From a virus (Duplodnaviria > Heunggongvirae > Uroviricota > Caudoviricetes): a DNA stretch of 59,363 nucleotides. The stretch lies in IMG/VR virus record IMGVR_UViG_3300028048_000083, positions 1-59,363 of that record; one strand, given 5' to 3'. Of the stretch, positions 21,667 to 53,462 are shown piece by piece; position 1 is the stretch's first letter; each line of letters starts with the position of its first letter. The notes beneath the pieces were generated by a model. That model ran no database searches and was not told the DNA's origin. It worked only from the letters and a program-made list of their open reading frames with translations. The position numbers and the translations under genes were made by a program.

Positions 21667-21745
21667 AAAAATAATTAGGTTTGATTTGCGGAAAAATGCT
21701 GTAGTTTTCGGTTATATTGTTGAAATTTTTATAAAAACCAATTTT

Positions 21746-23149
21746 ATGACTCAAGAGAAATTCAAACAAATCATTTCATTTATAGGTAATTGCATTAAGG
21801 GAAGCGATTTTGAAAACCATGTATTTGCCGTCGGAGGATGTGTACGTGATAGCTACATGGGCAATGAAATCAAGGATATTGACTTATGTATTGATTTGCC
21901 AGATGGTGGCATAAAACTGGCTGAATTTCTTCATACAAAAAAGTTTCTCACCCGTCCCCCTGTAGTCTACCCTACTTATGGAACCGCAATGTTCAAGTTC
22001 AAGAAATTCAACCAGGATGAAATCGAGTGTGTCCATACTCGTGGAGAACAGTATCACGACAAGAACAGCCGTAATCCTGAGACTTGCTTTGCCACCATCC
22101 AGGATGACTGCGTCCGTCGTGACCTTACAATCAACGCTCTTTACATGAACGTCACCAGTGGTGAAGTTCTTGACCTGACTGGCAAAGGGCTTGACGATAT
22201 TAAAAATCACGTTTGCCGTGTAACCAACGAAAATCCTGATATTGTATTCAATGATGACCCTCTTCGTATACTTCGCGTTATTCGTTTCGCGTGCCGATAC
22301 AACTTTGACATCGAGGAAAACACTTGTGCTTCGATGATGAAGAATGTTGACCGATTGGAAATCATCACTCAGGAACGAATTACCGATGAGTTCAACAAAA
22401 TGCTTATGACAGATGAGCCAGCTCGTGCAATGGCTCTTATAAGACATATAAAAGCCATGAAGTATATCATTCCTGAGCTTATCGAAACATATGATATGGA
22501 GCAAAATGCATATCATTGTGCCAGTGTCTGGGACCATACAATGAGTCTTATGTGTAGTGAAGAATCGAACTATCAACCATATCTTCCCACAAGACTTGCC
22601 TGTGTTCTGCATGACATTGGTAAAATTAGAACCAAAACCGTTGGTGCTGATGGACGCATTCATTTCTACGACCATGAAACCGTTGGCGCTGATATGGTTC
22701 GCGATATTATGCATAGAATGCGTTATTCTAACGACATTACCGAGGAGGTGTGTTTCTATATCAGAAACCATATGATTACCAAGGGTTGGGGTGATGACCT
22801 TAGCCATATGAAAATGAAGTCTCTTCGTAAACTCATGTACAAGGCTAAGACTGAGGAGCGTTTCAACCACCTTATTGAAGTGATTAATTGCGATAACTGT
22901 AGCCACAAAAAGGAGCATTGTATGTGGAACCAGGGTGAAAATATCCTAAAAGTCGCTGCCAACGAAAAGAGAATGTTTGGTTATCAGCTTCCTATTAACG
23001 GAAATGAGGTTATGGAAGTACTTGGTATTGAGCCAGGTCCTAAGGTTAAGAAGTATCTTGACCATTGCATGAAACTTGCTTTCAATAATCCAGACATCAC
23101 CAAAGAAGATTGTATTAAGGAAATTAAACATTTTAAGATTAACGAATAA
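21746..23149 (+). CDS. cca: CCA-adding tRNA nucleotidyltransferase with HD domain
   Basis: AVGGCVRD...DIDL, RRDLTINAL, DDPLRILRVIRFA, LHDIGK, HETVGA; ATG at 21746. Confidence 0.92.
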   Translation: MTQEKFKQIISFIGNCIKGSDFENHVFAVGGCVRDSYMGNEIKDIDLCIDLPDGGIKLAEFLHTKKFLTRPPVVYPTYGTAMFKFKKFNQDEIECVHTRGEQYHDKNSRNPETCFATIQDDCVRRDLTINALYMNVTSGEVLDLTGKGLDDIKNHVCRVTNENPDIVFNDDPLRILRVIRFACRYNFDIEENTCASMMKNVDRLEIITQERITDEFNKMLMTDEPARAMALIRHIKAMKYIIPELIETYDMEQNAYHCASVWDHTMSLMCSEESNYQPYLPTRLACVLHDIGKIRTKTVGADGRIHFYDHETVGADMVRDIMHRMRYSNDITEEVCFYIRNHMITKGWGDDLSHMKMKSLRKLMYKAKTEERFNHLIEVINCDNCSHKKEHCMWNQGENILKVAANEKRMFGYQLPINGNEVMEVLGIEPGPKVKKYLDHCMKLAFNNPDITKEDCIKEIKHFKINE

Positions 23150-27334: not shown

Positions 27335-27556
27335 ATGGTAGTTTTTGAAATTGAAGGCAATGCCAATGACTTACATGCAATTGAGCATAACGGAAAAATG
27401 GAATCGATAAGCCTGGTGAAACTGAACGGTGACACAGAACCAGATATCGAAATGACAATCTCGTCTTTTAACATTGGATGTGAGGATTTTGAACACAAAC
27501 TGATAAAAGGATTACTGGGTCATAAGATACGTTTTACTGTTGAAACATTAGACTGA
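27335..27556 (+). CDS. hypothetical protein
   Basis: ORF. Confidence 0.7.
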   Translation: MVVFEIEGNANDLHAIEHNGKMESISLVKLNGDTEPDIEMTISSFNIGCEDFEHKLIKGLLGHKIRFTVETLD

Positions 27557-28374
27557 TGAACAATATTGAGATACAAACAAACGCCACATATGCAGTAGGG
27601 GACATACACGGTAATTTCAATTCACTCATATCAATGATTAAACGGTATGGCATAACCGATTCCTGCATTATAGTATGCGGCGATTGCGGCTTAGGGTTTA
27701 ACAAGTGGTCAGCCACGAAAAAGCTTGTTTCAAAACTGGATAAGTTGTGTGTGAAGAACAATATAACCGTCGTTATGGTTCGCGGAAATCACGACGACCC
27801 CGACTTTTTCATTCAAGGCAATCTTACTCCCAGAATTGTGCCTGTACCCGATTACACGGTCATAAACGGTAGTATTCTGTGTATTGGTGGTGCCATTTCA
27901 ATTGACCGTAAATACAGAATGTCGGTCAAAGACAAATACTACCTGGATTATATCAAATACCATCCAGGAGCCAGTCTTGAAACAGCCATCAGTAACACGC
28001 CTAATCTCTACTGGAGCAACGAACCGCCAGTTTATGACGAGGAAAAGTTGGATGAAATCAAGGAGGCTGGGTTAAATATAACGACAGTTTGTACCCATAC
28101 CTGTCCAGGCTTTTGTGACCCAGTGACCAAAGACGGTATTGGGTCATGGCTAAAGGCTGACCCTGAATTAGAGACCGACATTAATGCGGAACGCAAGGTA
28201 ATGGACTTGGTTTATGAAAAACTTATATCGGACGGGCATACGGTGAAAGACTGGATTTATGGTCATTATCACCGCCACAGCATGATGGTTGTTGACAATA
28301 CGCGTTTTTTGATGTTAGGTGCGGTTGTCTGTGAGAACGACAATGTGGATTGGGTTGAAATATTAAGAACTTAA
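27556..28374 (+). CDS. calcineurin-like metallophosphoesterase
   Basis: GDIHG, CGDCG, RGNHD, THTCP, YGHYH. Confidence 0.92.
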   Translation: MNNIEIQTNATYAVGDIHGNFNSLISMIKRYGITDSCIIVCGDCGLGFNKWSATKKLVSKLDKLCVKNNITVVMVRGNHDDPDFFIQGNLTPRIVPVPDYTVINGSILCIGGAISIDRKYRMSVKDKYYLDYIKYHPGASLETAISNTPNLYWSNEPPVYDEEKLDEIKEAGLNITTVCTHTCPGFCDPVTKDGIGSWLKADPELETDINAERKVMDLVYEKLISDGHTVKDWIYGHYHRHSMMVVDNTRFLMLGAVVCENDNVDWVEILRT

Positions 28375-29306: not shown

Positions 29307-30866
29307 ATGTTTACTAAAAGCGAAAATTTTAAAGAGGAGTATTGTGCCCAAATTGTGAAAATCGGTCCACTGGAGCCTATCGAGAATTCAGATTTCCTTG
29401 CACGTACCACAATTAACGGTTTTAATGTTGTTGTGGGTAAGAATGACGTGAAAGAGGGCGACATTATGGTATACGCTAAACTTGAAACTGAGGTTAATAC
29501 TGATTTTCTTTCAGTTAACAATCAGTTTGAGATTGGTGAGCGTCACTTGAATAAGAATTACAATGAGGTTCAGGCCCTTATTGATGAGGGTAAGGATGAT
29601 GAGGCTAAGAAACTTGTTGGTTATTTCAATAAGTATGGCCGTGTCCGCATTGTGAAACTTCGTAAATGTCCGTCAGAGGGTTGTTTGTTCACTGTTGATT
29701 CCCTTGTCAAATGGAAACCAGAGTTGGCAAATTATGACTTTAATCAGTGTTTTATTCCAAATGCTGACGGCGTGGTTGAGCCATTCTGTTTCGATACCAT
29801 CGGTAAAGACCTTTTTGTCAAGGCTTATGTTCCAAGAATTTCAAACCGTGAGCAAACTAGGACTAACAAAGATGCCAAACGTAACCGTCGTTTGAAGAGG
29901 TTTGACCGTATGATTGAGGGTCAGTTCTCATTCCATTACACAACAAACCAACTCCAGGATAATATGTGGCGTATTAATCCAACTACACCAATTTTTGTCT
30001 CAGTTAAGGAACATGGAACAAGTGTGTGTATTGGAAGACTTTTAATTAAAAAGCCGCTTCCCGCTTCACTTCCTCGTAAGATAGAGAATAAGAGGAAAGC
30101 CCGTCAGTTGAGATACCTTTACAAGGCCGAGCGCCGTTTCTACTGGCAGAAGCTCGTTGTGAAAAACAAAATCAATTCAATCAAGAATTATCTCAACAGC
30201 CAGTACACCGTGGATTATGGTAATGTTACATCGTCACGTACTGTAATTAAAAATCGGTATATCAATAATGGGGTGCAACAGCATTTCTACGGTACTGATA
30301 TATGGTCAAAGTATGGTGATTTGATTTATCCGTATTTACTTGATGGTATGACTCTGTATGGTGAAATTTGTGGATATGTTGACGGTTCGCAATCAATGAT
30401 TCAGAAGGGTTATGACTACGGTTGTAAGCCAGGTACCAGTTATTTGATGCCTTATCGTATAACGTTTACTGACCACGAAGGAAATCACACTGAGTGGGAA
30501 CTTAATGAAGTGTTTGGGTGGACTAAGAAATTAATCGAGGAACACCCAGAACTGGCTGATAAAGTACACCCAATAAACATTCTTTATCACGGAACCCTTG
30601 GTGATTTGTATCCTGATATTGACCCGTCTGAGCACTGGAATGAAAACGTTCTTAAGGCTATGGCAGCTGACCATGAGCACTTTGGTATGGAAGAAAACGA
30701 ACCGTTGTGTAAAAACAAGTGTTACAGAGAAGGGATTGTAGTTAGGATTGAAAATGATAAAAATTTTGAGGCATTTAAATTAAAATGTAAAAACTTTTTA
30801 TTTGCGGAGTCAAAACTAATAGATTCTGGAAATATTGATATTGAAATGGAAAATACGTATCAATAA
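29307..30866 (+). CDS. ATP-dependent RNA ligase (DRB0094/Rnl2-like family)
   Basis: N-terminal OB-like module (PIENSD...VVVGK...EGD..VY); nucleotidyltransferase motifs KEHGTS, LYGEI, EGIVVR, AFKLK. Confidence 0.82.
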   Translation: MFTKSENFKEEYCAQIVKIGPLEPIENSDFLARTTINGFNVVVGKNDVKEGDIMVYAKLETEVNTDFLSVNNQFEIGERHLNKNYNEVQALIDEGKDDEAKKLVGYFNKYGRVRIVKLRKCPSEGCLFTVDSLVKWKPELANYDFNQCFIPNADGVVEPFCFDTIGKDLFVKAYVPRISNREQTRTNKDAKRNRRLKRFDRMIEGQFSFHYTTNQLQDNMWRINPTTPIFVSVKEHGTSVCIGRLLIKKPLPASLPRKIENKRKARQLRYLYKAERRFYWQKLVVKNKINSIKNYLNSQYTVDYGNVTSSRTVIKNRYINNGVQQHFYGTDIWSKYGDLIYPYLLDGMTLYGEICGYVDGSQSMIQKGYDYGCKPGTSYLMPYRITFTDHEGNHTEWELNEVFGWTKKLIEEHPELADKVHPINILYHGTLGDLYPDIDPSEHWNENVLKAMAADHEHFGMEENEPLCKNKCYREGIVVRIENDKNFEAFKLKCKNFLFAESKLIDSGNIDIEMENTYQ

Positions 30867-39200: not shown

Positions 39201-39202
39201 TC

Positions 39203-39263: not shown

Positions 39264-39304
39264 ACAAGACAGGATGACAAGAAATTGCCGCCTGTCTTCA
39301 ATAT

Positions 39305-39377
39305 GCGGACATAGCTCAATGGGTAGAGCGGGAGTTTTCCAAACTTCAGGTTGTGGGTTCGAGCCCCGTTGTCCGCT
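39305..39377 (+). tRNA. tRNA-Gly(TCC)
   Basis: Full cloverleaf; loop TTTCCAA; U73. Confidence 0.92.
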
Positions 39378-39455
39378 CAAGGCGGTTGCCATTGTTTTAG
39401 ACTTCGTAATGGGGGAACACATAAACCCAAAGGATTTTTCTTGGCAGCCAAAATG

Positions 39456-39537
39456 AAACCCGTACAGCAATTGAATTCATTCTTATTCCAAAAAATTGTT
39501 TAACGGAAGAGCGAGACGTAAAACAGCCTGGGTTTTG
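39456..39537 (+). ncRNA. ACAGCAA-stem RNA element E1
   Basis: AAACCC...GGGTTT-TG closing stem; ACAGCAA at 39464. Confidence 0.6.
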
Positions 39538-39542
39538 TATAT

Positions 39543-39629
39543 GGAGGGGTGGCAGAGCGGTTGATTGCAACGGCCTTGAAAACCGTCGACCTCGCAAGGG
39601 GTCCGAGGGTTCGAATCCCTCCCCCTCCG
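39543..39629 (+). tRNA. tRNA-Ser(TGA)
   Basis: Cloverleaf with long variable arm; G73. Confidence 0.92.
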
Positions 39630-39729
39630 CTAAATTTCCTGAACCCACAGTCGTTAAGCGGGCAACGGTCGTCCTTGATGTTGAACCTTCGGTTGGTAAC
39701 GACAGCCGATGCGGAATGCTGATAGGATA

Positions 39730-39807
39730 AGTACGGTCGTCTAGTGGTCTAGGACAGCCCCCTTATCGGGGGGCAGACGTGGTGTTCGAATCCCGTCCGT
39801 AGTTCCA
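39730..39807 (+). tRNA. degenerate tRNA-like gene (8-nt anticodon loop CTTATCGG)
   Basis: D-arm and GC anticodon stem present; T stem imperfect; encoded CCA. Confidence 0.55.
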
Positions 39808-39815
39808 AATCAAAG

Positions 39816-39880
39816 GAAGTCATACAGCAAGCAAAATTAACTCTGAACCATTTCTTTCGGAAAAGTAAATTGACTTCTGA
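39816..39880 (+). ncRNA. ACAGCAA-stem RNA element E2
   Basis: GAAGTCA...TGACTTC-TGA; near copy of E4. Confidence 0.7.
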
Positions 39881-39883
39881 AAT

Positions 39884-39965
39884 GGGTAGGTATACCGTAA
39901 TTGGTAGCGGGCCTGACTGTAAATCAGGTGCTTCGGCTCTGGGGGTTCAAGTCCCTCCCTGCCCA
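39884..39965 (+). tRNA. tRNA-Tyr(GTA)
   Basis: Cloverleaf; CTGTAAA loop. Confidence 0.92.
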
Positions 39966-39970
39966 CAAAA

Positions 39971-40064
39971 CACATCATCATAGTTTAATGTTAGGTACCT
40001 TAGAAAATTTAGAACGCCAGAATGGTAATCTGGAGGTTGCGGTTGGATTCCGTAGTTGATGTGA
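39971..40064 (+). tRNA. tRNA-Thr(GGT)-like gene with ~16-nt D-loop insertion
   Basis: CACATCA/TGATGTG; CCAGA-ATGGTAA-TCTGG; T loop TTGGATT. Confidence 0.55.
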
Positions 40065-40367
40065 CTGATAGAACCTTTTCCTGATAAATCATCAGGTGGC
40101 ATACAAATAAGGCGAAGTCAGTTTTCCTTAACACTTGTTGCACTGATAAAGCCTGATGAATGCTTGGGTGAAAGAATGGGTTAGATTCCCAACTTCTCAA
40201 TCAGCGTATAATGATTGTAGAGACAGTAGTAAGTTAGGTAGTATGACCAACAAGTATTTTTTTTTTAGTTAATAATTAAGTTTTGGTGGTAAACAAAAAA
40301 TAAACCCAAACAGTTAGTCTGTTAGCCAAAGTTGTGGGTTGGACAGCACATCGATAGAAAGATATAG

Positions 40368-40445
40368 TGCGGGGTGGACTGGAGTTGGTTCCAGCTTGGT
40401 CTCATAAGCCAAATCACGGAGGTTCGAATCCTCCCCCCGCTACCA
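40368..40445 (+). tRNA. tRNA-Met(CAT), possibly initiator-type
   Basis: CTCATAA loop, 1:72 mismatch, encoded CCA; lacks the three consecutive G-C anticodon-stem pairs. Confidence 0.85.
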
Positions 40446-40562
40446 AATCTTTTGACAATTTCAATATTCGCGATAAACAATTGTCGAAAGCACACGTATT
40501 TTAACAAGAATATCCCAGAATGGGAAGGTCTAGGTAATCAATCCTTGCGTGTGTAAAAAATT

Positions 40563-40790
40563 AAAGAAAACAGTAGGTGGGCTTGGAAGTAGCCATCCTT
40601 TAAAGAGTGACAGACTGTAACGGAGGACAAAAATCCTGGTGCAATACAAGCTTTAAAAGCCAGGATTCCTTATCGGCAGCAAGTAAACGTGAAACGTGAC
40701 GTGAAACCTATGATTACTACATTGTAAAATGATAATGCTTACCCATAACTAGTAGGCGGTCTTTGGTGTAACAACACACTGGTTTTCTTT
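40563..40790 (+). ncRNA. 23S rRNA H43-H44 (L11/GTPase-associated centre) mimic with internal insertion
   Basis: GGCTTGGAAGTAGCCATCCTTTAAAGAGTG...GTAACAACACACTGG closed by AAAGAAAAC/GTTTTCTTT. Confidence 0.8.
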
Positions 40791-40796
40791 TTTAAT

Positions 40797-40941
40797 GTAT
40801 CTGTGACGGGGAATTGGTATACCCGCGCTTTAAAAGTAGAGACTTCCGTGAAAGACGGATACACATCGTAAAAATTACGGTGAGGTCGAACGGTCATGTA
40901 AATGATGCCAGTTAATGATGGTTCAAATCCATCCAGGTACG
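40797..40941 (+). tRNA. Leu-type tRNA-like gene with greatly expanded anticodon/variable region
   Basis: GTATCTG/CAGGTAC acceptor, GGAATTGGTATA D loop, canonical T arm; anticodon not assignable. Confidence 0.55.
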
Positions 40942-41012
40942 CCCAAAGGCTGTACTGTTAAGCGATTTAGGTGCCAAAGACAATAAGTGTACTGAAACGG
41001 AGCAAAACAGGG

Positions 41013-41235
41013 TTGTAAACAGTTCGTCTAAAGTCTAAGAAATAATATGAACGCCGCAATAAATATCCTCAAAGAGGGGGAAAGAATAATAGGGTCCCGT
41101 AGACCCGAATTCACGCTTGTGGAGAACCCAACCGTGGACGACCGTCAGGCAGAGCCTGACCTAAGAAGCGGTGGTTCGTTGAAACAAGAAGCGGAAACTT
41201 GGGAATCATAAGATTTCATAGGTTTTTGTGTACGG
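41013..41235 (+). mobile_element. minimal non-autonomous IS607-like element retaining the tnpB 3' end / omegaRNA scaffold
   Basis: 41047-41211 encodes NAAINILKEGERIIGSRRPEFTLVENPTVDDR...LRSGGSLKQE, a typical TnpB C-terminal tail. GG at both inferred junctions. Confidence 0.7.
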
Positions 41236-41359
41236 TTTGTCATGTATTGACCATATAAATCATGACCCTATCATCGGTGGAAACGGTGGTCAAAACCAAG
41301 ATGGAGTACTACATCAGCAAGTGAGGGTTTCGAGTTAACGTTAGTAGCTTGCAAATTTT

Positions 41360-41432
41360 GGGAGCATAGCTCAGCTGGTAGAGCGTCGGACTGTTAATCC
41401 GCAGGTCGTAGGTTCGAACCCTACTGCTCCCG
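41360..41432 (+). tRNA. tRNA-Asn(GTT)
   Basis: Canonical cloverleaf. Confidence 0.95.
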
Positions 41433-41440
41433 CAAATTAT

Positions 41441-41507
41441 GGAACCCGTACAGCAAACAATATTTTAGGACCGAACTTTTAATTCGATATTCTACTTTGG
41501 GTTCTGA
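41441..41507 (+). ncRNA. ACAGCAA-stem RNA element E3 with Lys-like anticodon hairpin
   Basis: GGAACCC...GGGTTCT-GA; internal CGAA-CTTTTAA-TTCG. Confidence 0.7.
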
Positions 41508-41536
41508 CGAGAAATTTACCTCGACTTGGCAAGATG

Positions 41537-41601
41537 GAAGTCGTACAGCAAACAAAATTAATTCTGAACCATTTATATCGGAAATGTAAATCGACTTCTG
41601 A
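41537..41601 (+). ncRNA. ACAGCAA-stem RNA element E4
   Basis: GAAGTCG...CGACTTC-TGA; compensatory A-T to G-C change relative to E2. Confidence 0.72.
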
Positions 41602-41678
41602 AAAAAATTAAAAATATTTAAGTTCACAAGCATTATTTTCCACAAATAAGATATTTATATTAAACAATAGTTATAAAT

Positions 41679-42578
41679 ATGCTTAATATAGATATTTCAA
41701 CGGAAGAGAAGCGTAAAGAAACTTTTGAACTTTTTGATAAAATGTTATCAAAAGGAGATATTTTTAAATATTATGGAGTTTCGGATAACACAAAAAATAC
41801 AAATGAATTAAATAGAATTGGTGATATAATAGGTTTTGATTTTTCAATTTATAATAGAAGAAAACATCCAGATAGATTTTGTAAATTATGCGGTAAAAAA
41901 CTTAATTATGGCCAAGATTTATTTTGTTCTAAAAGCTGCTCAGCAAAATATAATAATAAACATCACGTTAGAACCGAAGAAAGTAAACGTAAAACATCTA
42001 AAAGTTTGATTAATTATCACAAAAATAATATAGAAAATAGTGATAAAATATTAATTATAACTGAAGATGGTGATGAAAAGATTTTACATGAACACGTTTG
42101 TGAATGTTGTGGTAAGATTTTCCATAGTAAGAAAAAAAACCGAAAATTCTGTTCTAGAAAATGCTCAGTTAAAAATAGAAGTGATAGATATCGAAACAAT
42201 ATAGATGAATACAAAATATATCATATAGCTTGTGATTTTAAATTTTCGCTAAATGATTATCCTAATGAATTCAATTTTCAGTTGATTGAGGAATATGGGT
42301 GGTATAAAGCAAAAAATCATGGCAACAATTTAAATGGAATAAGTAGAGACCATATATTGTCAGTTCGTGATGGGTTTGAGAATAAAATTGACCCTTATTA
42401 TTTATCTCATCCAGCTAATTGTAATCTTATGATACATAATGATAATATATCAAAACATAAACATTCAGATATTACTTTCGAAGAACTTTTAGAGAGAATA
42501 AAAGAATGGGAAAATAAATATGGCATATATGAAAATAAAATTTCATATGTTGGTATAGAAAGTTTTCAAACAAAATAA
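41679..42578 (+). CDS. His-Me (HNH-like) endonuclease with Zn-finger repeats
   Basis: IDISTEEK N-terminal module; CxxC...FCSxxC repeats; SRDH...HPANC..M.HNDN. Confidence 0.75.
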   Translation: MLNIDISTEEKRKETFELFDKMLSKGDIFKYYGVSDNTKNTNELNRIGDIIGFDFSIYNRRKHPDRFCKLCGKKLNYGQDLFCSKSCSAKYNNKHHVRTEESKRKTSKSLINYHKNNIENSDKILIITEDGDEKILHEHVCECCGKIFHSKKKNRKFCSRKCSVKNRSDRYRNNIDEYKIYHIACDFKFSLNDYPNEFNFQLIEEYGWYKAKNHGNNLNGISRDHILSVRDGFENKIDPYYLSHPANCNLMIHNDNISKHKHSDITFEELLERIKEWENKYGIYENKISYVGIESFQTK

Positions 42579-44860: not shown

Positions 44861-45125
44861 AGTGACGGTTGTTGATAGTCATTCGAATGTATGTAAGACT
44901 TCGGTTCGAATCCGAACAGGTCCACGATGTTACCGATATTAAAAAGGGGCATGAAGGTCGCGGTCACCTTAAGACCGTATTTGGGCTTGACTTGGTTTTG
45001 ATTGCATATTAGTAGGGTGGAAGTAGACTGTTACTGAAGTTGTTTAAACGGCAACACAAACTATTCTTATCGCATGGCTGCCTAAGTTGGGCACCCACAG
45101 CGGGGCTGGCAACGAGCCAAATCGT
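44861..45125 (+). ncRNA. ssrA: circularly permuted (two-piece) tmRNA
   Basis: Acceptor piece 44861-44924 (T arm + CAGGTCC-A) precedes coding piece from 44983 (GGGCTTG...GGTTTTGA). G3.U70 present. Tag GNTNYSYRMAA* at 45050-45085. Confidence 0.88.
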
Positions 45126-45415: not shown

Positions 45416-45920
45416 CATTCAAGCATTAAAAATAATTGATTGACAGATAACAAAAAATATAACCTAAATTGAAATTTGTGTAATTGATAGTATAGAGCCA
45501 GTTGTCCCAAACTATCGTTAATACTTGGTGGTGAATCAAGAAGCGCAGGGAAATGCGGGCATCGCAGGAGTAGCGCTATTATGCTTACTTGCAAGAATTT
45601 CGATATAGGTTTTTTTCAAGTTGCTGGGTCGCGCCCAGCCATCGGATTAATTTTCGGAAAAGTTTGGTCTTCCGATGCTAAATGACTACAAACTCCCTTT
45701 GTATTACGATACCAACGTGGATGTAATATGAAGTATAAGCTGGTTATAAGAATACAGTCTTATTCGAAGCCAGATAGCGATACGTTGGTCTTTTGACTCT
45801 GTGGGTATTTGAGAGCATATTCAAACCCAATCAGATAGGACATGCACTGGAAGATACGGATGAAGGAGACTCCGAAGCATTTATAGAGTGTGCGGTAAAC
45901 CGTATTAAGACGCACAAATT

Positions 45921-46005
45921 GGAGGGGTGGCAAAGCGGTTGATTGCGGTGCTTTTGAAAAGCATTGGGTGTTACAGCCCTGTAGGTTCGAATCCTATACC
46001 CTCCG
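45921..46005 (+). tRNA. tRNA-Ser(TGA), second copy
   Basis: Cloverleaf with variable arm; G73. Confidence 0.9.
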
Positions 46006-46085: not shown

Positions 46086-46931
46086 ATGAATAGGATTGAT
46101 ATTAGCACGGAAGAAAAAAAACAAGAAGTTTATGATTTATTCAAAAATTTCAAGAATAAGTCACAAATACATGTGTATTATGGAATAAGTGACAATTCGC
46201 AAGGTTGTCAGTATATAAAAGAGGTTGCTGATGAGATTGGTTTTGATTTAAGTTCATATAAAAAGAAAGAAACAAGATATTGTTTGGAGTGTGGTGCTGA
46301 GTTAAAAAAAGGCCAAACCAAGTTTTGTTGCAAATCATGTGCGGTTGCTTATAATAATAGACAGCGTGATAAATCGGTATATGAAAAAGTTGCATCAAAA
46401 TTAAGGAAAAACCAAAAACATAATAAGAAAGAGGATAAATATTGTGTTGTTTGTGGTAAACCGTTAATTGGTAGACAACACAAATTTTGTTCTAAAAGCT
46501 GTAGAAATAAATATTATTATTCAAACAATGGATATGAAGTAGTATGTGTTGAATGCGGTAAAATATTTAAAGCCACTGATTCTGAAAGAAGGTTTTGTTC
46601 AAATTCGTGTTGTACGAAGTATAAACAGGAAAAACTTATAGAGGAATGGTTGAAAGGAAATTTAGAAATAAACGGAAACTCTGGATTATGTGATAGTATA
46701 AGAAAATTCCTTTTTGATAAAACAAAATATAAATGTCAAAAGTGTGGTTTTGAAGGATATAATGAAGTAACTGGTAATACAATATTGCAAATTCATCATA
46801 AAGATGGTGATTGTAATAATAACACACCAGAAAATTTAGAAGTTTTATGTCCAAATTGTCATGCTATGACTGAAAACTATATGGGATTAAATCGTGGAAA
46901 GTCAACAAGAATTAAAAGATATTATAAATAG
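46086..46931 (+). CDS. HNH endonuclease with IDISTEEK module and Zn-finger repeats
   Basis: LQIHHKDGD..NN...NLEVLCPNCHA. Confidence 0.9.
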   Translation: MNRIDISTEEKKQEVYDLFKNFKNKSQIHVYYGISDNSQGCQYIKEVADEIGFDLSSYKKKETRYCLECGAELKKGQTKFCCKSCAVAYNNRQRDKSVYEKVASKLRKNQKHNKKEDKYCVVCGKPLIGRQHKFCSKSCRNKYYYSNNGYEVVCVECGKIFKATDSERRFCSNSCCTKYKQEKLIEEWLKGNLEINGNSGLCDSIRKFLFDKTKYKCQKCGFEGYNEVTGNTILQIHHKDGDCNNNTPENLEVLCPNCHAMTENYMGLNRGKSTRIKRYYK

Positions 46932-47017
46932 AGGGTTACCCAAGTTGGTGAAGGGGACAGACTGCTAATTTGTTAGGACGCTTCGGTGTCTCGTGGGTTC
47001 GAATCCCACCCCCTCCG
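46930..47017 (+). tRNA. tRNA-Ser(GCT)
   Basis: CTGCTAA loop; 5' end overlaps the HNH stop codon; A1.C72 mismatch. Confidence 0.85.
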
Positions 47018-47112
47018 CAATGGGGTCGTCTTCCATGTTATCCGACCACAAAATATAAATAAGATGCTTGGTGACATTGGTACCGTTCGAATAAGGTGAA
47101 TGGTACAACTGT

Positions 47113-47249
47113 AGGAGTGTAGTTTAACGGTAGAATGACGGTCTCCGTACAGGGTGGCTCCTGAGAGAGGCTTAAATCAACGAATATTGTTTAGAGATAG
47201 ACAATATTTGACAAAACCGTAGATGTTGGTTCGATTCCAGCCACTCCTG
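47113..47249 (+). tRNA. tRNA-Trp(CCA) with 66-nt insertion in the anticodon
   Basis: ACGGT-CTCC[insert 47147-47212]AAA-ACCGT; G73. Confidence 0.82.
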
Positions 47250-47386
47250 CAAAATGCTAGCAAACGTTGCATAAGGATAAGGTTTCAAGCCCCACTGAAT
47301 CCGTTCAAGTCGGATTGAAATTAACTTGGAGTTGTTTCCAGGGACTGCAACGAGTCTGTATAGTGGGGATAGAGGCAGACAAATAT

Positions 47387-47509
47387 TGGGAAGTCGTCTA
47401 GTGGTAGGACGCGGATAAATGGTGACTTTTGGTTATGAAAGTCGGACAGCAATTGATTCTATACATGCTTTGGGTGCCCGTTACGCTGGTTCGAATCCAG
47501 CCTTCCCAG
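47387..47509 (+). tRNA. tRNA-Pro(TGG) with 52-nt insertion at 29/30
   Basis: CGG[47415-47466]GC-TTTGGGT-GCCCG; removal gives a perfect 5-bp stem. Confidence 0.85.
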
Positions 47510-47710
47510 CAAAAAATGTTATTTTGCAGAGTTGCATAACTGCATAGTTGGCATTAAAATGTACATGAAACACGATGAGAACGCGGGGTGGGTTCCACAC
47601 CAATAAAAAGGGTCTTGTTGCCGTGGTGATAATAAGCAAGAGTTGAGGCTTGTGGAGAACGGAATACATAGTTTATATATTAAAACGGTACATTGTAACA
47701 TTTTTTTAAC

Positions 47711-47915
47711 GGTCCCTTAGCTCAGTTGGTTAGAGCGGCTGACTCGTGAAGGTCGTATAATGGTAGTACGACATCACAGCTAAGATTGTGAAGTAGGTGT
47801 GAGTTCGATTCTCACTCTTTGCACTAATTTTTTATGATTTGTTTCATAATTTTGAGGTATCATAAAGAAATAAACCATAATCAGCGGGTCGGGGGTTCAA
47901 GTCCCTCAGGGACCA
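47711..47915 (+). tRNA. tRNA(CAT) (Met or Ile2) with 131-nt anticodon insertion
   Basis: GCTGA-CTC[47746-47876]ATAA-TCAGC; GGTCCCT/AGGGACC acceptor. Confidence 0.82.
47746..47823 (+). tRNA. nested tRNA-like gene (anticodon AAG?) inside tRNA(CAT)
   Basis: GTGAAGG/TCTTTGC acceptor, GTAT/GTAC D stem, TCACA/TGTGA arm, GTGAG-TTCGATT-CTCAC. Confidence 0.7.
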
Positions 47916-47921
47916 CTTTCT

Positions 47922-48027
47922 GATTCCTTAGCTCAGTGGTTAGAGCGTCGCACGTAAAGGTTAACATGACAGAAGCGTGCGGTAATAGTCGGTTTTAGAG
48001 ACGCTGGTTCGAATCCAGCAGGAATCA
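47922..48027 (+). tRNA. tRNA-like gene with enlarged anticodon loop and variable region, anticodon unassigned
   Basis: Perfect acceptor, D and T arms; TCGCACG/CGTGCGG stem. Confidence 0.6.
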
Positions 48028-48145
48028 CCCAGTTTAATAACGTTCGATTGCTGGAGCTTCGCCTATGGAAGTTTGTGAGCATAGGTAGTTACACACTTAT
48101 AGGTAAAGTGGCGTTGGGTGTCCCCAAACGATATGTGGGGAATGT

Positions 48146-48284
48146 ATCCGTTTAGTTCAGTCAGGTTAGAACAGGCAAGCCCAAGATACATGCCGTAAAA
48201 CGAGAGCAACCAGGAGTGAGTAAAAGCAGATTAAGGACGGCACCGTTGTCACTCTTTACCCAGGTTCGAATCCTGGAACGGGTA
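48146..48284 (+). tRNA. tRNA-like gene with 13-nt anticodon loop and ~70-nt variable arm
   Basis: ATCCGTT/AACGGGT; GTTC/GAAC D stem; CCAGG-TTCGAAT-CCTGG. Confidence 0.6.
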
Positions 48285-48455
48285 CTATTTTTTCATTAAT
48301 CCATTAATATTGTCTGTGCGCTGTTTCTGGCTTTCAGTGTAAATCTGCGCTCTGTGTACAGGTATAAGACCGTAACTTATGAAGCTCTGGGGGATTTATC
48401 CGAAAAACTTTGCAAAGCATCTTCATTCGTCGGAAAACAGGGATATTAATGAATT

Positions 48456-48475
48456 TGCCCTGGTAGCTCAGGGCA
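48456..48475 (+). pseudogene. collapsed tRNA stub (GCCCTGGTAGCTCAGGGCA)
   Basis: tRNA 5' end GCCCTGGTAGCTCAG fused to acceptor 3' strand; matches remnant at 49704. Confidence 0.6.
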
Positions 48476-48482
48476 TTTATTT

Positions 48483-48556
48483 GGGGTGATGGTGTAGTTG
48501 GTTGGTCACGCTGGTCTGAAAAACCAGAGGCGGTATTTTCGATAATCCTCGCCCCA
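48483..48556 (+). tRNA. tRNA-Phe(GAA)
   Basis: CTGGT-CTGAAAA-ACCAG; T arm degenerate. Confidence 0.7.
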
Positions 48557-48636
48557 CAAAAATTTTTGAAAATTTAAGTTCAAAACCACATTTTTCCGCA
48601 GAAGATACTATTTATATTATATAAGGCATTATTAAT

Positions 48637-49704
48637 ATGAATAAGATTGACATTAGTACAGAAGAAAAGAAACAAGAGGTTTACAATTTATTTGCCTCAT
48701 TTAAAAAGAAGGGTGATATTCACAAGTATTTTGGAATAAGTGACAATTCACAAGGATGTAAGCATATCAAGGAGGTTGCTGATGAAATTGGGTTTGACTT
48801 AAATTCATATAAAAAGAAATACTGTCTAGAATGTGGTAAAGAGATTACATCAAAATATGGTAATAAATTTTGTTCATGTTCTTGTTCCATTTCACATCGT
48901 AATAAAAATAGTAAACATAGTGAAATAACTAAGAAGAAAATTAGCGAATCATTAAAAAAATTAAAGATAAACAAACCAACAATAAAAAAAGTGTGTAGAT
49001 GCTGTGGTCAAGAGGTGTGTGAGCATAATGAAATTTGTAAACATAGTCATGCTCTTTTTGAAAATCTAACCTATTTTGGATTTAATATTAATACGTATGG
49101 GACAAAAGATGTATATAATGAATATTATAAAACAAAAGCATTATTAGAAGAAGAATATTATAATAATGGATTAAATTCAAGGGAACTTAAAGAAAAGTAT
49201 GATTATCCCAAAACTTTTGAAAATATTACTCATATTTTAAAACATTTGGGAATAAAGGTAAGAAATGAAAGAGAAAGTCAAATAAACTTGATTATACGAA
49301 ATAAAGTTACGCCCCAAAATGCATTTAATACTTATCCATTTAAACACGGGTGGCATATAACATGGGATAACAATAAGATTTATTATAGAAGCTCATATGA
49401 ATTAGAATATGCTGAAGAATTAGATAAACAAAAAATTCATTATGAGGTAGAAAGTCTTAGAATATTATATTATGATACAGTATTACAGAGTGAAAGAGTG
49501 GCGATACCTGATTTTTATCTCCCCAAATCTAATGAAATTATTGAAGTTAAATCCAGGGTTACTTTTTTAAAACAAAACGTAGTAGATAAGTTTAAAAAAT
49601 ATATTGAATTAGGTTATACACCAAAATTATTATATGAGAATAAATTATATAAGTTAGAAGATATTGAAAGTTTAGAAGAATTTAAATATGTTTTGAACAC
49701 ATAG
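48637..49704 (+). CDS. PD-(D/E)XK (TnsA-like) endonuclease with IDISTEEK module
   Basis: YRSSYELEYA...PDFYLP...IIEVKS. Confidence 0.85.
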   Translation: MNKIDISTEEKKQEVYNLFASFKKKGDIHKYFGISDNSQGCKHIKEVADEIGFDLNSYKKKYCLECGKEITSKYGNKFCSCSCSISHRNKNSKHSEITKKKISESLKKLKINKPTIKKVCRCCGQEVCEHNEICKHSHALFENLTYFGFNINTYGTKDVYNEYYKTKALLEEEYYNNGLNSRELKEKYDYPKTFENITHILKHLGIKVRNERESQINLIIRNKVTPQNAFNTYPFKHGWHITWDNNKIYYRSSYELEYAEELDKQKIHYEVESLRILYYDTVLQSERVAIPDFYLPKSNEIIEVKSRVTFLKQNVVDKFKKYIELGYTPKLLYENKLYKLEDIESLEEFKYVLNT

Positions 49705-49763
49705 CCCTGTCTGGTGATTGGGGCAAGAGCCCCGCGTCGGTGGTTCAATTCCATCCCAGGGCA
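49704..49763 (+). pseudogene. decayed tRNA-Phe-like remnant
   Basis: GCCCTG/CAGGGC acceptor, GGGGC-AAGA-GCCCC (4-nt loop), intact T arm, scrambled D arm. Confidence 0.65.
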
Positions 49764-50063
49764 CGACCGACTTGGCAAAGCGAATTAATTCGCAACTCGT
49801 GATAGGCGGTAGTTGGGAAGACCACCTTGCGAGTATAAAGCAGAACTTCGCGCGTCTGCTGGCTGTTTCCAATAGGAAATGGTGACAACAAGACCCCGCC
49901 TGGTATGCACCTTCACAGAGCGTTAAATATCAGTAAGGCAGTTTGTTTCAGACAATACGGTGAGTCTGGAACAAGAGGTTATGGCATTAATCGCCTCGTT
50001 AATCAATTGAGATGACCACAATCGGTTGGAGTATAACCGTAACCGTTAAAATATACTCTATTT

Positions 50064-50191
50064 GGACAGGTAGCTCAGTTGGTTTAGAGCGACGTAATGA
50101 ATGACTTTTGGCGATTGAAAGTCGTACAGCAATTAATAAAATTCTATGGTCACCAACCCGTAGGTCGGAGGTTCGAATCCTTCCCTGCCCT
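50064..50191 (+). tRNA. tRNA-Gly(ACC) with 53-nt insertion at 29/30
   Basis: ACG[50095-50147]GG-TCACCAA-CCCGT; U73; atypical C33. Confidence 0.75.
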
Positions 50192-50347
50192 CGAAGCTTT
50201 AGCATAAAAACCGTCAAGGAAATCAAACCATATCCTGACACTGGGTAGTGACCATATACAGTGCGGCATGGGTAAAGGTGAGGAACTTGTAAAAATTTGC
50301 GCCTCCAGGGGGAGGAGATGCGGGTTGGTGAACCGACGGCTTTAACA

Positions 50348-50422
50348 CCTGTGGTAGCTCAGTTGGTTTAGAGCAATCGCCTGATACGCGATAGGTCGGT
50401 AGTTCGAGTCTACCCCACAGGA
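50348..50422 (+). tRNA. tRNA-Ile(GAT)
   Basis: Canonical cloverleaf. Confidence 0.93.
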
Positions 50423-50507
50423 CTGATTTTTTATAATAAATTAAAACAGTTTTTATGAACTTGAAATTTAAATGTGGTTTTATGTAATATACAAATTACA
50501 TAAAAAC

Positions 50508-53166: not shown

Positions 53167-53239
53167 GCGCCCGTGGCTGAGTGACTTAGGCGACCGTCTC
53201 TAAAACGGTACTACACGGGTTTGAATCCTGTCGGGCGCA
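53167..53239 (+). tRNA. amber suppressor tRNA (CTA)
   Basis: ACCGT-CTCTAAA-ACGGT; complete cloverleaf; T loop TTTGAAT. Confidence 0.9.
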
Positions 53240-53462
53240 CAAAGAGGTTGGAGGTTAACATTTACGCCATACCAGCTGTCAGTGCCGTTTGAGCCTAGAG
53301 CAGCGAATTTTTAGGCGAAAATGCAAATGACTTTTGATTAAGCGGTGACGAGCCAAACTGGTCATTAGCCAGATTGCCTCTGGCAAAAGCCAGATGTCCG
53401 TGAAAGTCGGAGGAGAGTCTTCCAGTGTATCGTGTTCTACTCCTTAAACAAGTAACAAGTAC

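What the first reader, a model, noticed from the sequence alone, without database searches (positions are those of the whole stretch)
47415..50147. Candidate new tRNA-intron family: two unrelated tRNAs carry the same insertion architecture at position 29/30
Seen: tRNA-Pro(TGG) (insert 47415-47466, 52 nt) and tRNA-Gly(ACC) (insert 50095-50147, 53 nt) are both interrupted after the third base of the anticodon stem. Removing either insert gives a perfect 5-bp stem (CGGGC/GCCCG; ACGGG/CCCGT). Both inserts read A/T linker, TGACTTT-TG-loop-GAAAGTC hairpin, G(G/T)ACAGCAATT, A/T linker containing ATTCTAT. Established: bacterial tRNA introns are normally self-splicing group I/II introns of >200 nt; short 29/30 introns are an archaeal, endonuclease-spliced phenomenon. 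These inserts are too short for group I/II and I could not see a clear bulge-helix-bulge. Inference: a protein-dependent or self-processing micro-intron, possibly sealed by the phage RNA ligase (29307) with kinase/phosphoesterase healing, or a switch keeping the tRNA silent or shielded until processed.
Basis: partly seen in the sequence, partly recalled or inferred. Interest (0 to 1): 0.9.

Follow-up and report, generated by a model that had tools for sequence, protein, structure and literature searches.

The report
Ro60-docking hairpin grafted into phage tRNAs
Two tRNA genes of a giant rumen/gut phage really carry the same conserved 52-53-base insert in the anticodon stem, but it looks less like a new intron than like the docking module of the phage's Ro60-like protein, which would make these RNAs tRNA-shaped "Y RNAs".

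Summary
tRNA-Pro(UGG) (47387-47510) and a second tRNA (50064-50192) each carry a 52/53-nt insert after position 29, and removing it restores a 5-bp anticodon stem.

The insert belongs to a real RNA family: a 6-7-bp helix followed by ACAGCAA. I found 11 insert-type copies in five phages. The site ranges from 28/29 to inside the loop, so it is not always 29/30. I also found 48 free-standing copies in circularly permuted order. Two of these enclose a permuted tRNA and match Rfam YrlA below threshold.

The helix covaries. Orthologous tRNAs in two related phages keep the insert and show compensatory exon changes, so these are not decaying pseudogenes.

I found no BHB motif, EndA, RtcB, group I/II or known ribozyme signal. 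RNA-library contigs span both inserts unspliced.

The phage encodes a Ro60-fold protein (DUF2828/DUF7788). In six related phages the ACAGCAA element sits directly beside that gene, three times overlapping its start codon.

Best reading (about 0.5): a Ro60-like docking module grafted onto tRNAs, a new Y-RNA topology. The rival (about 0.3) is a true protein-spliced intron. This scan has noted similar inserts on other phage DNA. The free-standing copies also resemble Dictyostelium Class I RNAs below threshold.

The parts
47387..47414 (+). 5' part of the tRNA-Pro(UGG)-like gene (positions 1-29, ends CGG)
   Evidence: Rfam tRNA alignment; ARAGORN -i; junction enumeration
47415..47466 (+). 52-nt insert. 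Linker 47415-47422; helix strand UGACUUU 47423-47429; loop 47430-47437; helix strand AAAGUCG 47438-47444; ACAGCAA 47446-47452; A/U linker 47453-47466
   Evidence: Sequence; motif search; alignment A2; hairpin in the MFE fold
47467..47510 (+). 3' part of the tRNA-Pro(UGG)-like gene (GC + loop UUUGGGU + GCCCG, variable loop, T arm, acceptor)
   Evidence: Compensatory acceptor-stem changes against the G001 and L185 orthologues
50064..50094 (+). 5' part of the second tRNA-like gene (ends ACG); identical in relative G001
50095..50147 (+). 53-nt insert. Linker 50095-50101; UGACUUU 50102-50108; loop 50109-50117; AAAGUCG 50118-50124; ACAGCAA 50126-50132; A/U linker 50133-50147
50148..50192 (+). 3' part of the second tRNA-like gene (GG + loop UCACCAA + CCCGU, T arm, acceptor with A3.C70 mismatch)
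   Evidence: One RNA contig reads T at 50188, which restores the pair
39455..39537 (+). Free-standing ACAGCAA element E1 (closing stem AAACCCG/UGGGUUU + UG)
39816..39879 (+). Free-standing ACAGCAA element E2 (GAAGUCA/UGACUUC + UG)
41442..41506 (+). Free-standing ACAGCAA element E3 (GAACCCG/UGGGUUC + UG; interior hairpin with Lys-like loop CUUUUAA)
41537..41600 (+). Free-standing ACAGCAA element E4 (GAAGUCG/CGACUUC + UG; interior hairpin with 7-nt loop AUAUCGG)
29307..30866 (+). Phage RNA ligase (context; candidate sealing enzyme under the intron rival)
   Evidence: PF09414 21 bits + PHA02142 OB domain; phrog_968 RNA ligase, E 1.5e-35
27556..28374 (+). Calcineurin-like metallophosphoesterase (context; end-healing candidate)
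   Evidence: PF00149, E 4.9e-10
21686..23149 (+). CCA-adding / poly(A) polymerase family enzyme with HD domain (context)
   Evidence: PF01743, PF12627, PF01966

Best explanation
The 52/53-nt insert is the docking module for the phage's own Ro60-like ring protein, grafted as a side branch onto the 5' strand of the anticodon stem of otherwise complete tRNAs. The module is a 6-7-bp helix whose strand is followed by single-stranded (G/U)ACAGCAA and an A/U-rich linker. The protein is the DUF2828/DUF7788 protein at G000:63530-64978, just outside the window.

Under this reading the RNAs are tRNA-shaped Y RNAs, a new topology of the YrlA kind. They would be transcribed with the tRNA array and trimmed like tRNAs. 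The branch at 29/30, where the ribosomal P site reads the stem, would keep them out of translation. They would serve to bring a real anticodon stem-loop and tRNA body to the Ro60-like protein. There they could act as bait or tether for tRNA-binding enzymes such as host anticodon nucleases, or for the phage's RNA-repair ligase, phosphoesterase and CCA enzyme.

Shown here:
- The family, its three topologies and its covariation.
- The Ro60 fold of the protein.
- The gene-RNA adjacency in related phages.
- Unspliced RNA contigs spanning both inserts.

Inferred:
- That the protein binds the module.
- That the insert is retained in the working RNA.
- The bait/tether role.
For: 1. The module is one family in three topologies. 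There are 11 insert-type copies in five phages and 48 unique free-standing copies, GAAGNNN-UACAGCAA...NNNCUUC-UG. Two free-standing copies (L185 2612, L196 3851) have a circularly permuted tRNA as their interior. ARAGORN calls a tRNA after in-silico permutation, and both match Rfam YrlA RF02553 over the full model at 33 bits, E about 7e-4.

2. The helix covaries. Free-standing middle pairs include UC/GA, GC/GC, AC/GU, CC/GG, UG/CA and AG/CU. Insert hairpins include GACUUU/AAAGUC, GGCUUC/GAAGCU, GGUUUUC/GAAUACC and GACUC/GAGUC.

3. G000 encodes a 482-aa protein with DUF2828 + DUF7788. Its AlphaFold model has pLDDT 86. The top 13 PDB matches are all Ro60/Rsr/TROVE structures, including a Thermus phage Ro60 (E 2e-8, probability 1.00). 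Swiss-Prot models give the same answer.

4. Homologues of that protein (48-55% identity) lie directly beside ACAGCAA elements:
- G002: the element ends 4 nt before the ATG.
- G004, G005 and L222: the closing strand contains the ATG, which looks like an operator.
- G005 and L222: an element sits just after the stop codon.
- G003 and L217: three tandem elements lie downstream.

5. RNA-library contigs bridge both inserts unspliced: X2 47200-47474, X3 47332-47500, and X1 49766-50327 at depth 35. The neighbouring ORF has about zero depth, so the signal is RNA, not DNA.

6. The insert site varies from 28/29 to inside the loop. The 'second tRNA' orthologues keep their body but change the anticodon loop: AUUGUAA, CUUUUAA, UCACCAA. 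The interrupted Pro(UGG) is a third copy beside two intact Pro(UGG) genes in both the window and G001.

7. Free-standing copies have no tRNA body to restore, yet often carry anticodon-like hairpins. 18 of 48 do, against 6.2 +/- 2 in shuffles, with loops such as CUUUUAA and CUUGUAA.

8. The literature places TROVE/Ro60 proteins with tRNA-like partner RNAs in RNA-repair systems of bacteria and some jumbo phages (PMC4201824; PMC7824862).
Against: - No binding data exist.
- In the window's own genome the Ro60-like gene is 13-16 kb from the two inserts and has no adjacent element.
- Six of the twelve other contexts of the protein family that I examined, besides G000, lack an adjacent element.
- The conserved sequence (N-ACAGCAA) is not the published Ro60 motif GNCGAAN0-1G / GGUCCGA (PMC4201824).
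- No Pfam TROVE hit was found.
- The YrlA matches are far below the gathering score (33 vs 69 bits).
- Removing the insert restores perfect 5-bp stems and mostly canonical 7-nt loops (U33, R37) in four different tRNA types, which is what one expects of exons.
- In G001 the interrupted tRNA is the only Thr tRNA in the array.
- Another interrupted tRNA in this window (CAU, 47711-47916) has an uninterrupted orthologue in G001 with conserved exons. Some cut-and-rejoin pathway may therefore exist in these phages.
Confidence: 0.5

Rival explanations
1. True tRNA intron. The helix-ACAGCAA module marks the RNA for a protein-dependent cut on both sides. The exon ends, held together as a nicked anticodon stem, are then sealed by the phage RNA ligase, with healing by the phosphoesterase or HD enzyme. 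The Ro60-like protein might serve as the platform. Permuted copies would be matured through a circular intermediate, as in Cyanidioschyzon merolae.
For: - Exact restoration of 5-bp stems and canonical loops in Pro(UGG), Thr(UGU), Lys(UUU), Gln(CUG), Gly(UCC) and Gly(CCC) contexts.
- An uninterrupted tRNA in an unrelated phage has the same arm, GAGCGACGGG-loop-CCCGU, contiguous.
- Compensatory changes in the exons.
- Narrow insert length, mostly 48-53 nt.
- The same module occurs in intron-like and permuted arrangements, which parallels the BHB motif in archaea and red algae.
- RNA ligase, metallophosphoesterase and CCA/HD enzyme are in the window.
- One RNA contig ends exactly at 47414, the last exon base (a weak hint that could also be a strain branch point).
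- Seven consecutive tRNAs (47113-50192) are interrupted. The CAU tRNA has an intact orthologue in G001.
Against: - No endonuclease candidate: no EndA in five phage records.
- No BHB: 0 of 8 have the 4-bp central helix.
- There is no fixed distance between the module and either junction (linkers of 6-12 and 8-15 nt) and no fixed site.
- Free-standing copies and the copies on the Ro60-like gene's start codon have nothing to splice.
- The anticodon loop is not conserved among orthologues of the second tRNA.
Confidence: 0.3
2. Self-processing micro-ribozyme. The module itself catalyses cleavage, or cleavage plus ligation, at the junctions.
For: The invariant single-stranded ACAGCAA sits next to a conserved helix. 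Small ribozymes (theta/HDV-like) are known beside tRNAs of recoded gut phages (PMC10879173).
Against: - No Rfam ribozyme family matches, even at E<=5.
- Only about 8-10 nt are conserved.
- The junction positions are variable relative to the module.
- Unspliced, uncut contigs are present in RNA libraries.
Confidence: 0.05
3. Dead tRNA genes disrupted by a small mobile DNA element (MITE-like or a homing-endonuclease by-product).
For: The array is full of HNH homing endonuclease genes. The element is multi-copy, and intact Pro(UGG) paralogues exist.
Against: - The same two tRNAs carry the insert at the same site in three diverged phages (neighbouring protein 81% identical). Exons are conserved, acceptor pairs show two compensatory changes, and the hairpin covaries.
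- There are no terminal inverted repeats or target-site duplications.
- All copies share one strand orientation.
Confidence: 0.07

Closest known systems
YrlA-type bacterial/phage Y RNAs with Ro60/Rsr (Rfam RF02553; Chen et al. 2014, PMC4201824; Wang et al. 2018, bioRxiv 10.1101/312249)
   Same: - Small RNAs tied to a Ro60-fold protein gene.
- A terminal helix with a conserved sequence next to its 5' strand.
- A tRNA-mimicking domain.
- Permuted family members here hit the YrlA model over its full length.
- An RNA-repair gene neighbourhood.
   Different: - The window copies are complete, non-permuted tRNAs with free acceptor ends and a real anticodon loop. The docking helix is a capped side branch at 29/30 rather than the 5'/3' end stem.
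- The conserved sequence is ACAGCAA, not GNCGAAN0-1G.
- The protein is DUF2828/DUF7788, not Pfam TROVE.
- Scores are below the Rfam gathering threshold.
'Enigmatic' tRNA introns of Lak megaphages (Devoto et al. 2019, PMC6784885)
   Same: - Huge gut Bacteroidota phages with alternative coding and tRNA arrays.
- Short inserts that no known intron class explains, including a tRNA nested inside a tRNA, as at 47711-47916 here.
- The ORF at 48637-49704 matches Lak phages at 68-70%.
   Different: That paper gives no structure, family or protein partner. I did not compare its Table S6 sequences. The window has about 37% GC against about 26% in Lak.
BHB-dependent non-canonical, split and permuted tRNA genes of Archaea and Cyanidioschyzon merolae
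   Same: One RNA module marks intron-like and permuted arrangements. Position 29/30 is a known archaeal intron site.
   Different: There is no bulge-helix-bulge, no EndA and no phage RtcB. The host is bacterial: the array carries a tmRNA, and the window encodes OmpA and DnaK homologues.
Dictyostelium Class I RNAs (Rfam RF01414; Kjellin et al. 2021, PMC7919456)
   Same: The free-standing copies share a 5' G, a 6-7-bp closing stem, UACAGCAA directly after the 5' strand, an A/U-rich variable interior, a length of about 55-90 nt (most 55-65, Class I-like; some to 127), and CUG after the 3' strand. All four window copies hit the model (22.6-30.3 bits).
   Different: - Scores are below the gathering threshold of 41.5 bits, and the model also gives weak hits in 7 of 14 control genomes.
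- Only 8 of the 11 motif positions match.
- These are phage RNAs with no DUSE promoter.
- Homology is unproven.
T4-type tRNA 'healing and sealing' (Pnkp + Rnl1/Rnl2) and the jumbo-phage RNA-repair gene sets (Iyer et al. 2021, PMC7824862)
   Same: The same genome carries an RNA ligase, phosphoesterase, CCA enzyme, RlaP and a Ro60-like protein.
   Different: Those systems repair nuclease damage. No programmed insert is known for them.

Membership tests
Archaeal/eukaryal endonuclease-spliced tRNA intron | Bulge-helix-bulge (two 3-nt bulges around a 4-bp helix) at the two junctions | tested here: not met
   0 of 8 insert-bearing pre-tRNAs have 4/4 central pairs; the best is 3/4 even with +/-1 shifts
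Archaeal/eukaryal endonuclease-spliced tRNA intron | EndA/Sen-family splicing endonuclease available | tested here: not met
   PF01974 is absent from G000, G001, G002, G004 and G005, while 4 archaeal controls are positive. The phage records are incomplete and the host genome is unknown
Archaeal/eukaryal endonuclease-spliced tRNA intron | Spliced product exists | tested here: inconclusive
   Only assembled contigs of four metatranscriptomes could be laid. They show unspliced forms, and contigs cannot show absence
Group I / group II intron | Catalytic core detectable, length over 200 nt | tested here: not met
   The inserts are 52/53 nt, and no Rfam intron family matches at E<=5
Known small self-cleaving ribozymes (hammerhead, HDV/theta, twister, pistol, hatchet, hairpin) | Match to the family covariance model | tested here: not met
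   No such hit at E<=5 in 46900-50450 or at E<=10 in 39200-41700
Y RNA / YrlA | Ro60-family protein encoded in the same genome | tested here: met
   L215:4531-5979(-) has DUF2828 + DUF7788. Its model (pLDDT 86) has Ro60/Rsr/TROVE structures as the top 13 PDB matches. Pfam TROVE itself is not detected
Y RNA / YrlA | RNA gene adjacent to the Ro60 gene | tested here: inconclusive
   Met for family members in G002, G003, G004, G005, L217 and L222. Not met in G000, L216, L218, L219-L221 or L223. The two window inserts lie 13-16 kb from the gene
Y RNA / YrlA | tRNA-like domain | tested here: met
   The window copies are full tRNAs by Rfam at 41-43 bits. The permuted relatives contain T and D arms
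Y RNA / YrlA | Ro60-binding motif GNCGAAN0-1G / GGUCCGA near the 5' end (PMC4201824) | tested here: not met
   The conserved sequence is (G/C)NC(G/A)-(U/G)-ACAGCAA
Y RNA / YrlA | Reaches the Rfam RF02553 gathering score | tested here: not met
   The permuted relatives score 33 bits against 69. The window inserts give no YrlA hit
Y RNA / YrlA | Physical association with Ro60 | not testable with these tools
   Needs RIP or EMSA
Dictyostelium Class I RNA (RF01414) | 5' G, short closing stem, 11-nt motif CCUUACAGCAA after the 5' strand, about 60 nt, CUGU 3' end | tested here: inconclusive
   The stem, 5' G, UACAGCAA (8 of 11), length and CUG are present in the free-standing copies, but the scores of 22.6-30.3 bits are below the 41.5 gathering score. 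The window inserts are the permuted form and are not hit
Lak megaphage tRNA introns | Sequence relatedness to the published Lak intron set | not tested
   Table S6 of PMC6784885 was not read. The exact-motif scans of IMG/VR returned no Lak record, but they were too narrow to exclude Lak copies

The most novel reading that the evidence does not exclude
The helix-ACAGCAA module is the recognition element of a previously unknown, Ro60-like-guided cut-and-rejoin pathway for tRNA in bacterial viruses. It would be a functional analogue of the archaeal BHB system, removing the module from interrupted tRNAs and circularising permuted ones, with sealing by the phage RNA ligase.

A second untested possibility follows from the near-identical architecture of the free-standing copies. 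Dictyostelium Class I RNAs may be the same RNA class, serving DUF2828-type Ro60 paralogues.
Probability: 0.2. Interest if true: 0.9.

Novelty: new variant of a known kind. Interest (0 to 1): 0.7.

Why it matters
- It offers a concrete, testable explanation for at least one class of the 'enigmatic' tRNA introns reported in gut megaphages.
- It assigns a candidate RNA partner to an uncharacterised but very large protein family. DUF2828/DUF7788 has more than 1,400 relatives in the metagenome database and also occurs in plants and other eukaryotes.
- It extends Y RNAs from permuted tRNA mimics to full tRNAs that carry the docking hairpin as a branch.
- If the insert is instead spliced, it would be the first non-ribozyme tRNA splicing route in the bacterial world.
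- Standard tRNA finders miss these genes, so phage tRNA inventories and codon-reassignment inferences are affected either way.

Tried and rejected
- **Exact-motif scans of IMG/VR.** GAAAGTCGKACAGCAAW returned only coding-sequence coincidences. GACTTYT-N-RAAGTCNNACAGCAA returned coincidences plus the already known G001/G002 copies. About 110 of 120 hits to GGAAGTCRTACAGCAA were an unrelated phage gene.
- **Spliced joints in RNA contigs.** No joint 47414>47467 or 50094>50148 was among the joints listed from four metatranscriptome contig sets. Several stretches had no cover. Contigs drop rare forms and mature tRNAs are rarely assembled, so this is not evidence against splicing.
- **Intron-less orthologues.** The spliced Pro junction GGACGCGGGCTTTGGGTGCCCG has 0 hits in IMG/VR. 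The second tRNA's spliced arm hit only an unrelated tRNA-Asn. BLAST of the spliced sequences against all held loci found only insert-bearing orthologues.
- **Splicing machinery and known RNA classes.** BHB, EndA, phage RtcB, Pfam TROVE and Rfam ribozymes and introns were all negative.
- **Promoter/terminator or split-tRNA reading of the insert.** I dropped this because the helix covaries as RNA and the element occurs on an mRNA start codon.
- **Structure and sequence searches for the protein.** The single-sequence AlphaFold model of the Ro60-like protein was useless (pLDDT 37), and a sequence search of the PDB found nothing. The alignment-based model was needed.
- **Co-occurrence of array ORFs with the element across relatives.** The held fragments were too partial to judge.
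- **Array ORFs without function.** PHROGs and Pfam gave no function for 50472, 51632, 52382 or 44193.
- **Literature.** Searches for phage tRNA introns, ACAGCAA and DUF2828 gave nothing relevant.


Full report
**Setting.** The window is the first 59 kb of a 123-kb IMG/VR fragment of a huge phage, estimated 32% complete. Its GC content is about 37%. It carries an 18-kb, single-strand tRNA array (39.3-57.3 kb) with a permuted tmRNA, an amber-suppressor tRNA(CUA) and many HNH endonuclease genes. One array ORF matches Prevotella Lak megaphages at 68-70% nucleotide identity. With ARAGORN's intron mode, seven consecutive tRNA genes (47113-50192) are interrupted. The finding concerns two of them.

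**Observation.** The Rfam tRNA model spans 47387-47509 and 50064-50191, with 63/64-nt gaps in the anticodon arm. Enumerating every deletion that yields a 5-bp stem plus a 7-nt loop in the right register leaves one canonical solution per gene:
- Insert 47415-47466, giving CGG|GC UUUGGGU GCCCG.
- Insert 50095-50147, giving ACG|GG UCACCAA CCCGU.

The two inserts are 75% identical. They share the layout A/U linker, UGACUUU, UGG-loop, AAAGUCG, K, ACAGCAA, A/U linker. The motif is far above chance and strictly strand- and array-specific. One caveat applies: 'Gly(ACC)' is a positional reading of an odd loop (C33).

**The insert is a member of a family.**
- A relative, G001 (neighbouring 693-aa protein 81% identical), has the orthologous Pro(UGG) and the orthologous second tRNA, each with a 50-nt insert at the same junction. 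A third phage (L185) has both as well.
- In the Pro orthologues the hairpin sequence is replaced (UGACUUU/AAAGUCG, GGCUGC/GGAGCC, GGCUUC/GAAGCU), while ACAGCAA (ACCGCAA in L185) and the A/U linkers stay. The acceptor stems differ by two compensatory double changes. These loci are under selection and are not decaying.
- Further insert-type copies occur in G002 (two) and G004 (three), in Gly, Gln-like and other tRNAs.
- Across these 11 copies the junction is 29/30 (six), 28/29 (two), 31/32-32/33 (two) or inside the loop (one). The '29/30 rule' therefore holds only for the two orthologue sets.
- The three orthologues of the second tRNA have nearly identical bodies but loops AUUGUAA, CUUUUAA and UCACCAA.

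**Free-standing and permuted forms.**
- The same helix and motif occur four times in the window (39455, 39816, 41442, 41537) in circularly permuted order: 5' strand, UACAGCAA, A/U-rich interior, 3' strand, UG. Another note of this scan had pointed this out.
- Pattern scans of IMG/VR and JGI metagenomes gave 48 unique such elements, mostly from rumen-type samples.
- When elements are chosen only by GAAG...ACAGCAA and a downstream CUUCUG, the three unconstrained middle pairs are complementary in 39 of 63, with at least six different pair combinations.
- Interiors often contain anticodon-like or T-loop-like hairpins: 18 of 48 against 6.2 +/- 2 in shuffles, with loops such as CUUUUAA, CUUGUAA and CUCGUAA.
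- In two elements (L185 2612, L196 3851) the interior is a T arm, then an acceptor helix closed by a loop, then a D arm. That is a circularly permuted tRNA. ARAGORN calls a tRNA after in-silico permutation, and Rfam's YrlA model matches both end to end at 33 bits.

**What it is not.**
- No group I/II or ribozyme family matches, even at E<=5.
- None of eight pre-tRNAs can form the BHB central helix.
- EndA and RtcB are absent from five phage records, although a Bacteroides control genome has RtcB and TROVE.
- The distances from the module to either junction vary (6-12 and 8-15 nt), so the module cannot act as a simple ruler.

**The protein link.** Notes from earlier agents of this scan on other phages suggested a Ro60 connection, and I tested it.
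- G000 has no Pfam TROVE hit. It does have a 482-aa DUF2828/DUF7788 protein at 63530-64978 and an RlaP RNA-repair nucleotidyltransferase nearby.
- With a 44-sequence alignment, its AlphaFold model (pLDDT 86, pTM 0.87) has Ro60 structures as the top 13 PDB hits over its full length. These include Xenopus, human, Deinococcus Rsr and a Thermus phage Ro60. Swiss-Prot models agree.
- Homologues at 48-55% identity exist in G002, G003, G004 and G005. In all four an ACAGCAA element touches the gene:
  - G002: the element ends 4 nt before the ATG.
  - G004: the closing strand AUGAGUA is the start codon, and the RBS lies inside the element.
  - G005: one element covers the ATG and two follow the stop codon.
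  - G003: three tandem elements follow the gene.
- Among further contexts, L222 again has the helix over the ATG plus an element after the stop codon, and L217 has three elements downstream. L216, L218, L219-L221 and L223 have none.
- Adjacency to the Ro60 gene is the criterion by which bacterial and phage Y RNAs were defined (PMC4201824). A ligand-like structure over a protein's own start codon is the classical signature of autoregulation by an RNA-binding protein (my own knowledge).

**RNA evidence.** Logan contigs of four gut/rumen metatranscriptomes cover the region unevenly. The homing-endonuclease-like ORF has about zero depth while the tRNA spacers reach depths of 30-130, so the signal is RNA. 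Contigs bridge both inserts unspliced (X2 47200-47474, X3 47332-47500, X1 49766-50327). One contig ends exactly at 47414, which could be a processing site or merely a strain branch point.

**Interpretation.** The best-supported reading is that the helix-ACAGCAA module docks the phage Ro60-like protein. The two window genes would then be tRNA-shaped Y RNAs: the YrlA idea in a new topology, with the docking helix capped and branching from the anticodon stem of a complete tRNA.

This reading accounts for:
- the three topologies;
- the operator-like copies;
- the variable insertion site;
- the non-conserved anticodon loop of one orthologue set;
- the redundancy of the interrupted Pro(UGG) with two intact copies;
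- the lack of any splicing signal;
- the unspliced RNA.

The role (bait or tether that presents a real anticodon arm to nucleases or to the phage's repair enzymes) is inference, by analogy with Ro60-Y RNA-PNPase and the rsr-yrlBA-rtcBA operon (PMC4201824, PMC7790460, PMC7824862).

**The intron rival stays alive (about 0.3).**
- Excision would restore flawless, mostly canonical anticodon arms in several tRNA types.
- G001's only Thr tRNA is the interrupted one.
- The phage has ligase and end-healing enzymes.
- The neighbouring CAU tRNA, split by a 131-nt insert containing a whole tRNA, has an uninterrupted orthologue in G001 with conserved exons. That orthologue also fixes its anticodon as CAU, not CGU.

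The two readings could merge if the Ro60-like protein is the platform of a cut-and-rejoin pathway.

**Comparison with the known.** The published 'enigmatic' Lak introns (PMC6784885) are the same phenomenon at the descriptive level. YrlA is the closest mechanistic relative, but a defining motif and the Rfam threshold are not met, so I do not file these RNAs as YrlA members.

All four free-standing window copies hit the Dictyostelium Class I RNA model (22.6-30.3 bits). They share every conserved Class I feature listed in PMC7919456 except three motif positions and the promoter. The scores are sub-threshold and the model also rings weakly in control genomes, so this is a lead only.

I found no paper describing this module, the DUF2828 partner or the branched topology. 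This scan has noted comparable inserts on other phage genomes.

**Verdict.** This is a real, conserved and probably functional RNA family. It is most likely a new variant of Y RNA/tRNA mimicry rather than a new intron chemistry. Direct RNA and binding experiments are needed to decide.

Noticed in passing
window 47113-50192: Seven consecutive tRNA genes are interrupted near the anticodon, by at least four unrelated kinds of insert (66 nt, 52 nt, 131 nt with a nested tRNA, about 18-25 nt, about 60 nt, 1.2 kb, 53 nt). In relative G001 several of the syntenic genes are uninterrupted.
   Followed up: partly
window 47113-47250; also L076 1604-1744, L197 174-318, L176, L147: A second short-intron family of 66-70 nt begins (A/G)UAC(A/U)GGGU(A/G)G(U/C)UCC..GAGAG. 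It is inserted inside the anticodon of Trp(CCA) here and of Asn(GUU) tRNAs in other phages. No Rfam match.
   Followed up: partly
window 47711-47916: A tRNA is split by a 131-nt insert that starts with a whole second tRNA-like gene (47746-47823, 8-nt anticodon loop). The uninterrupted G001 orthologue shows that the host anticodon loop is CUCAUAA (CAU: Met/Ile2), not Thr(CGU) as ARAGORN calls it. Acceptor pair 3-70 changed in a compensatory way.
   Followed up: partly
window 48457-49764: A tRNA-like gene is split by a 1.2-kb insert containing a complete tRNA-Phe(GAA) (48483-48556) and a 355-aa ORF (48637-49704). The ORF has no Pfam hit but matches Lak megaphages at 68-70% nucleotide identity. 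No group I intron signal.
   Followed up: no
window 39455-39537, 39816-39879, 41442-41506, 41537-41600: All four free-standing ACAGCAA elements hit the Dictyostelium Class I RNA model RF01414 below threshold. They share the 5' G, closing stem, UACAGCAA, A/U-rich interior and 3' CUG.
   Followed up: partly
G004:137568-137642, L222 about 1135-1201, G005 about 150775-150840 (relatives): The closing helix of an ACAGCAA element contains the start codon (and encloses the RBS) of the Ro60-like DUF2828/DUF7788 gene. This looks like an autoregulatory operator.
   Followed up: partly
window 50148-50160 vs G001 and L185 orthologues: The anticodon loop of one conserved tRNA body differs between three related phages (UCACCAA, AUUGUAA, CUUUUAA), while the stem and the rest are nearly identical.
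   Followed up: partly
window 45446-45930 and 49766-50060: Gene-free spacers in the array are the most deeply covered stretches in four metatranscriptomes (contig depths 18-130). They are probably abundant structured RNAs of unknown kind.
   Followed up: no
window 47921-48031 and 40368-40445; G001arr 9109-9186: tRNA-like genes with non-canonical anticodon regions: a 25-nt region containing GACAGAAG, a loop CGUAAAA with G33, and a 6-nt loop.
   Followed up: no
window 53167-53240 and 44867-45085: An amber-suppressor tRNA(CUA) implies that TAG is recoded in part of the genome. A circularly permuted two-piece tmRNA (RF04321, 63.7 bits) lies in the same array.
   Followed up: no
G001arr 6613-7468; L101 9954-10849; L104 1192-1723: tRNA-Leu(UAA) genes in related phages carry 445-811-nt inserts at the classical group I position in the anticodon loop.
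   Followed up: no
G000:69570-70997 (L215 10570-11997, minus strand): An RlaP-family 'RNA repair pathway' nucleotidyltransferase (PF10127, E 1.4e-20) lies about 5 kb from the Ro60-like gene. TelA and SSB are nearby.
   Followed up: no
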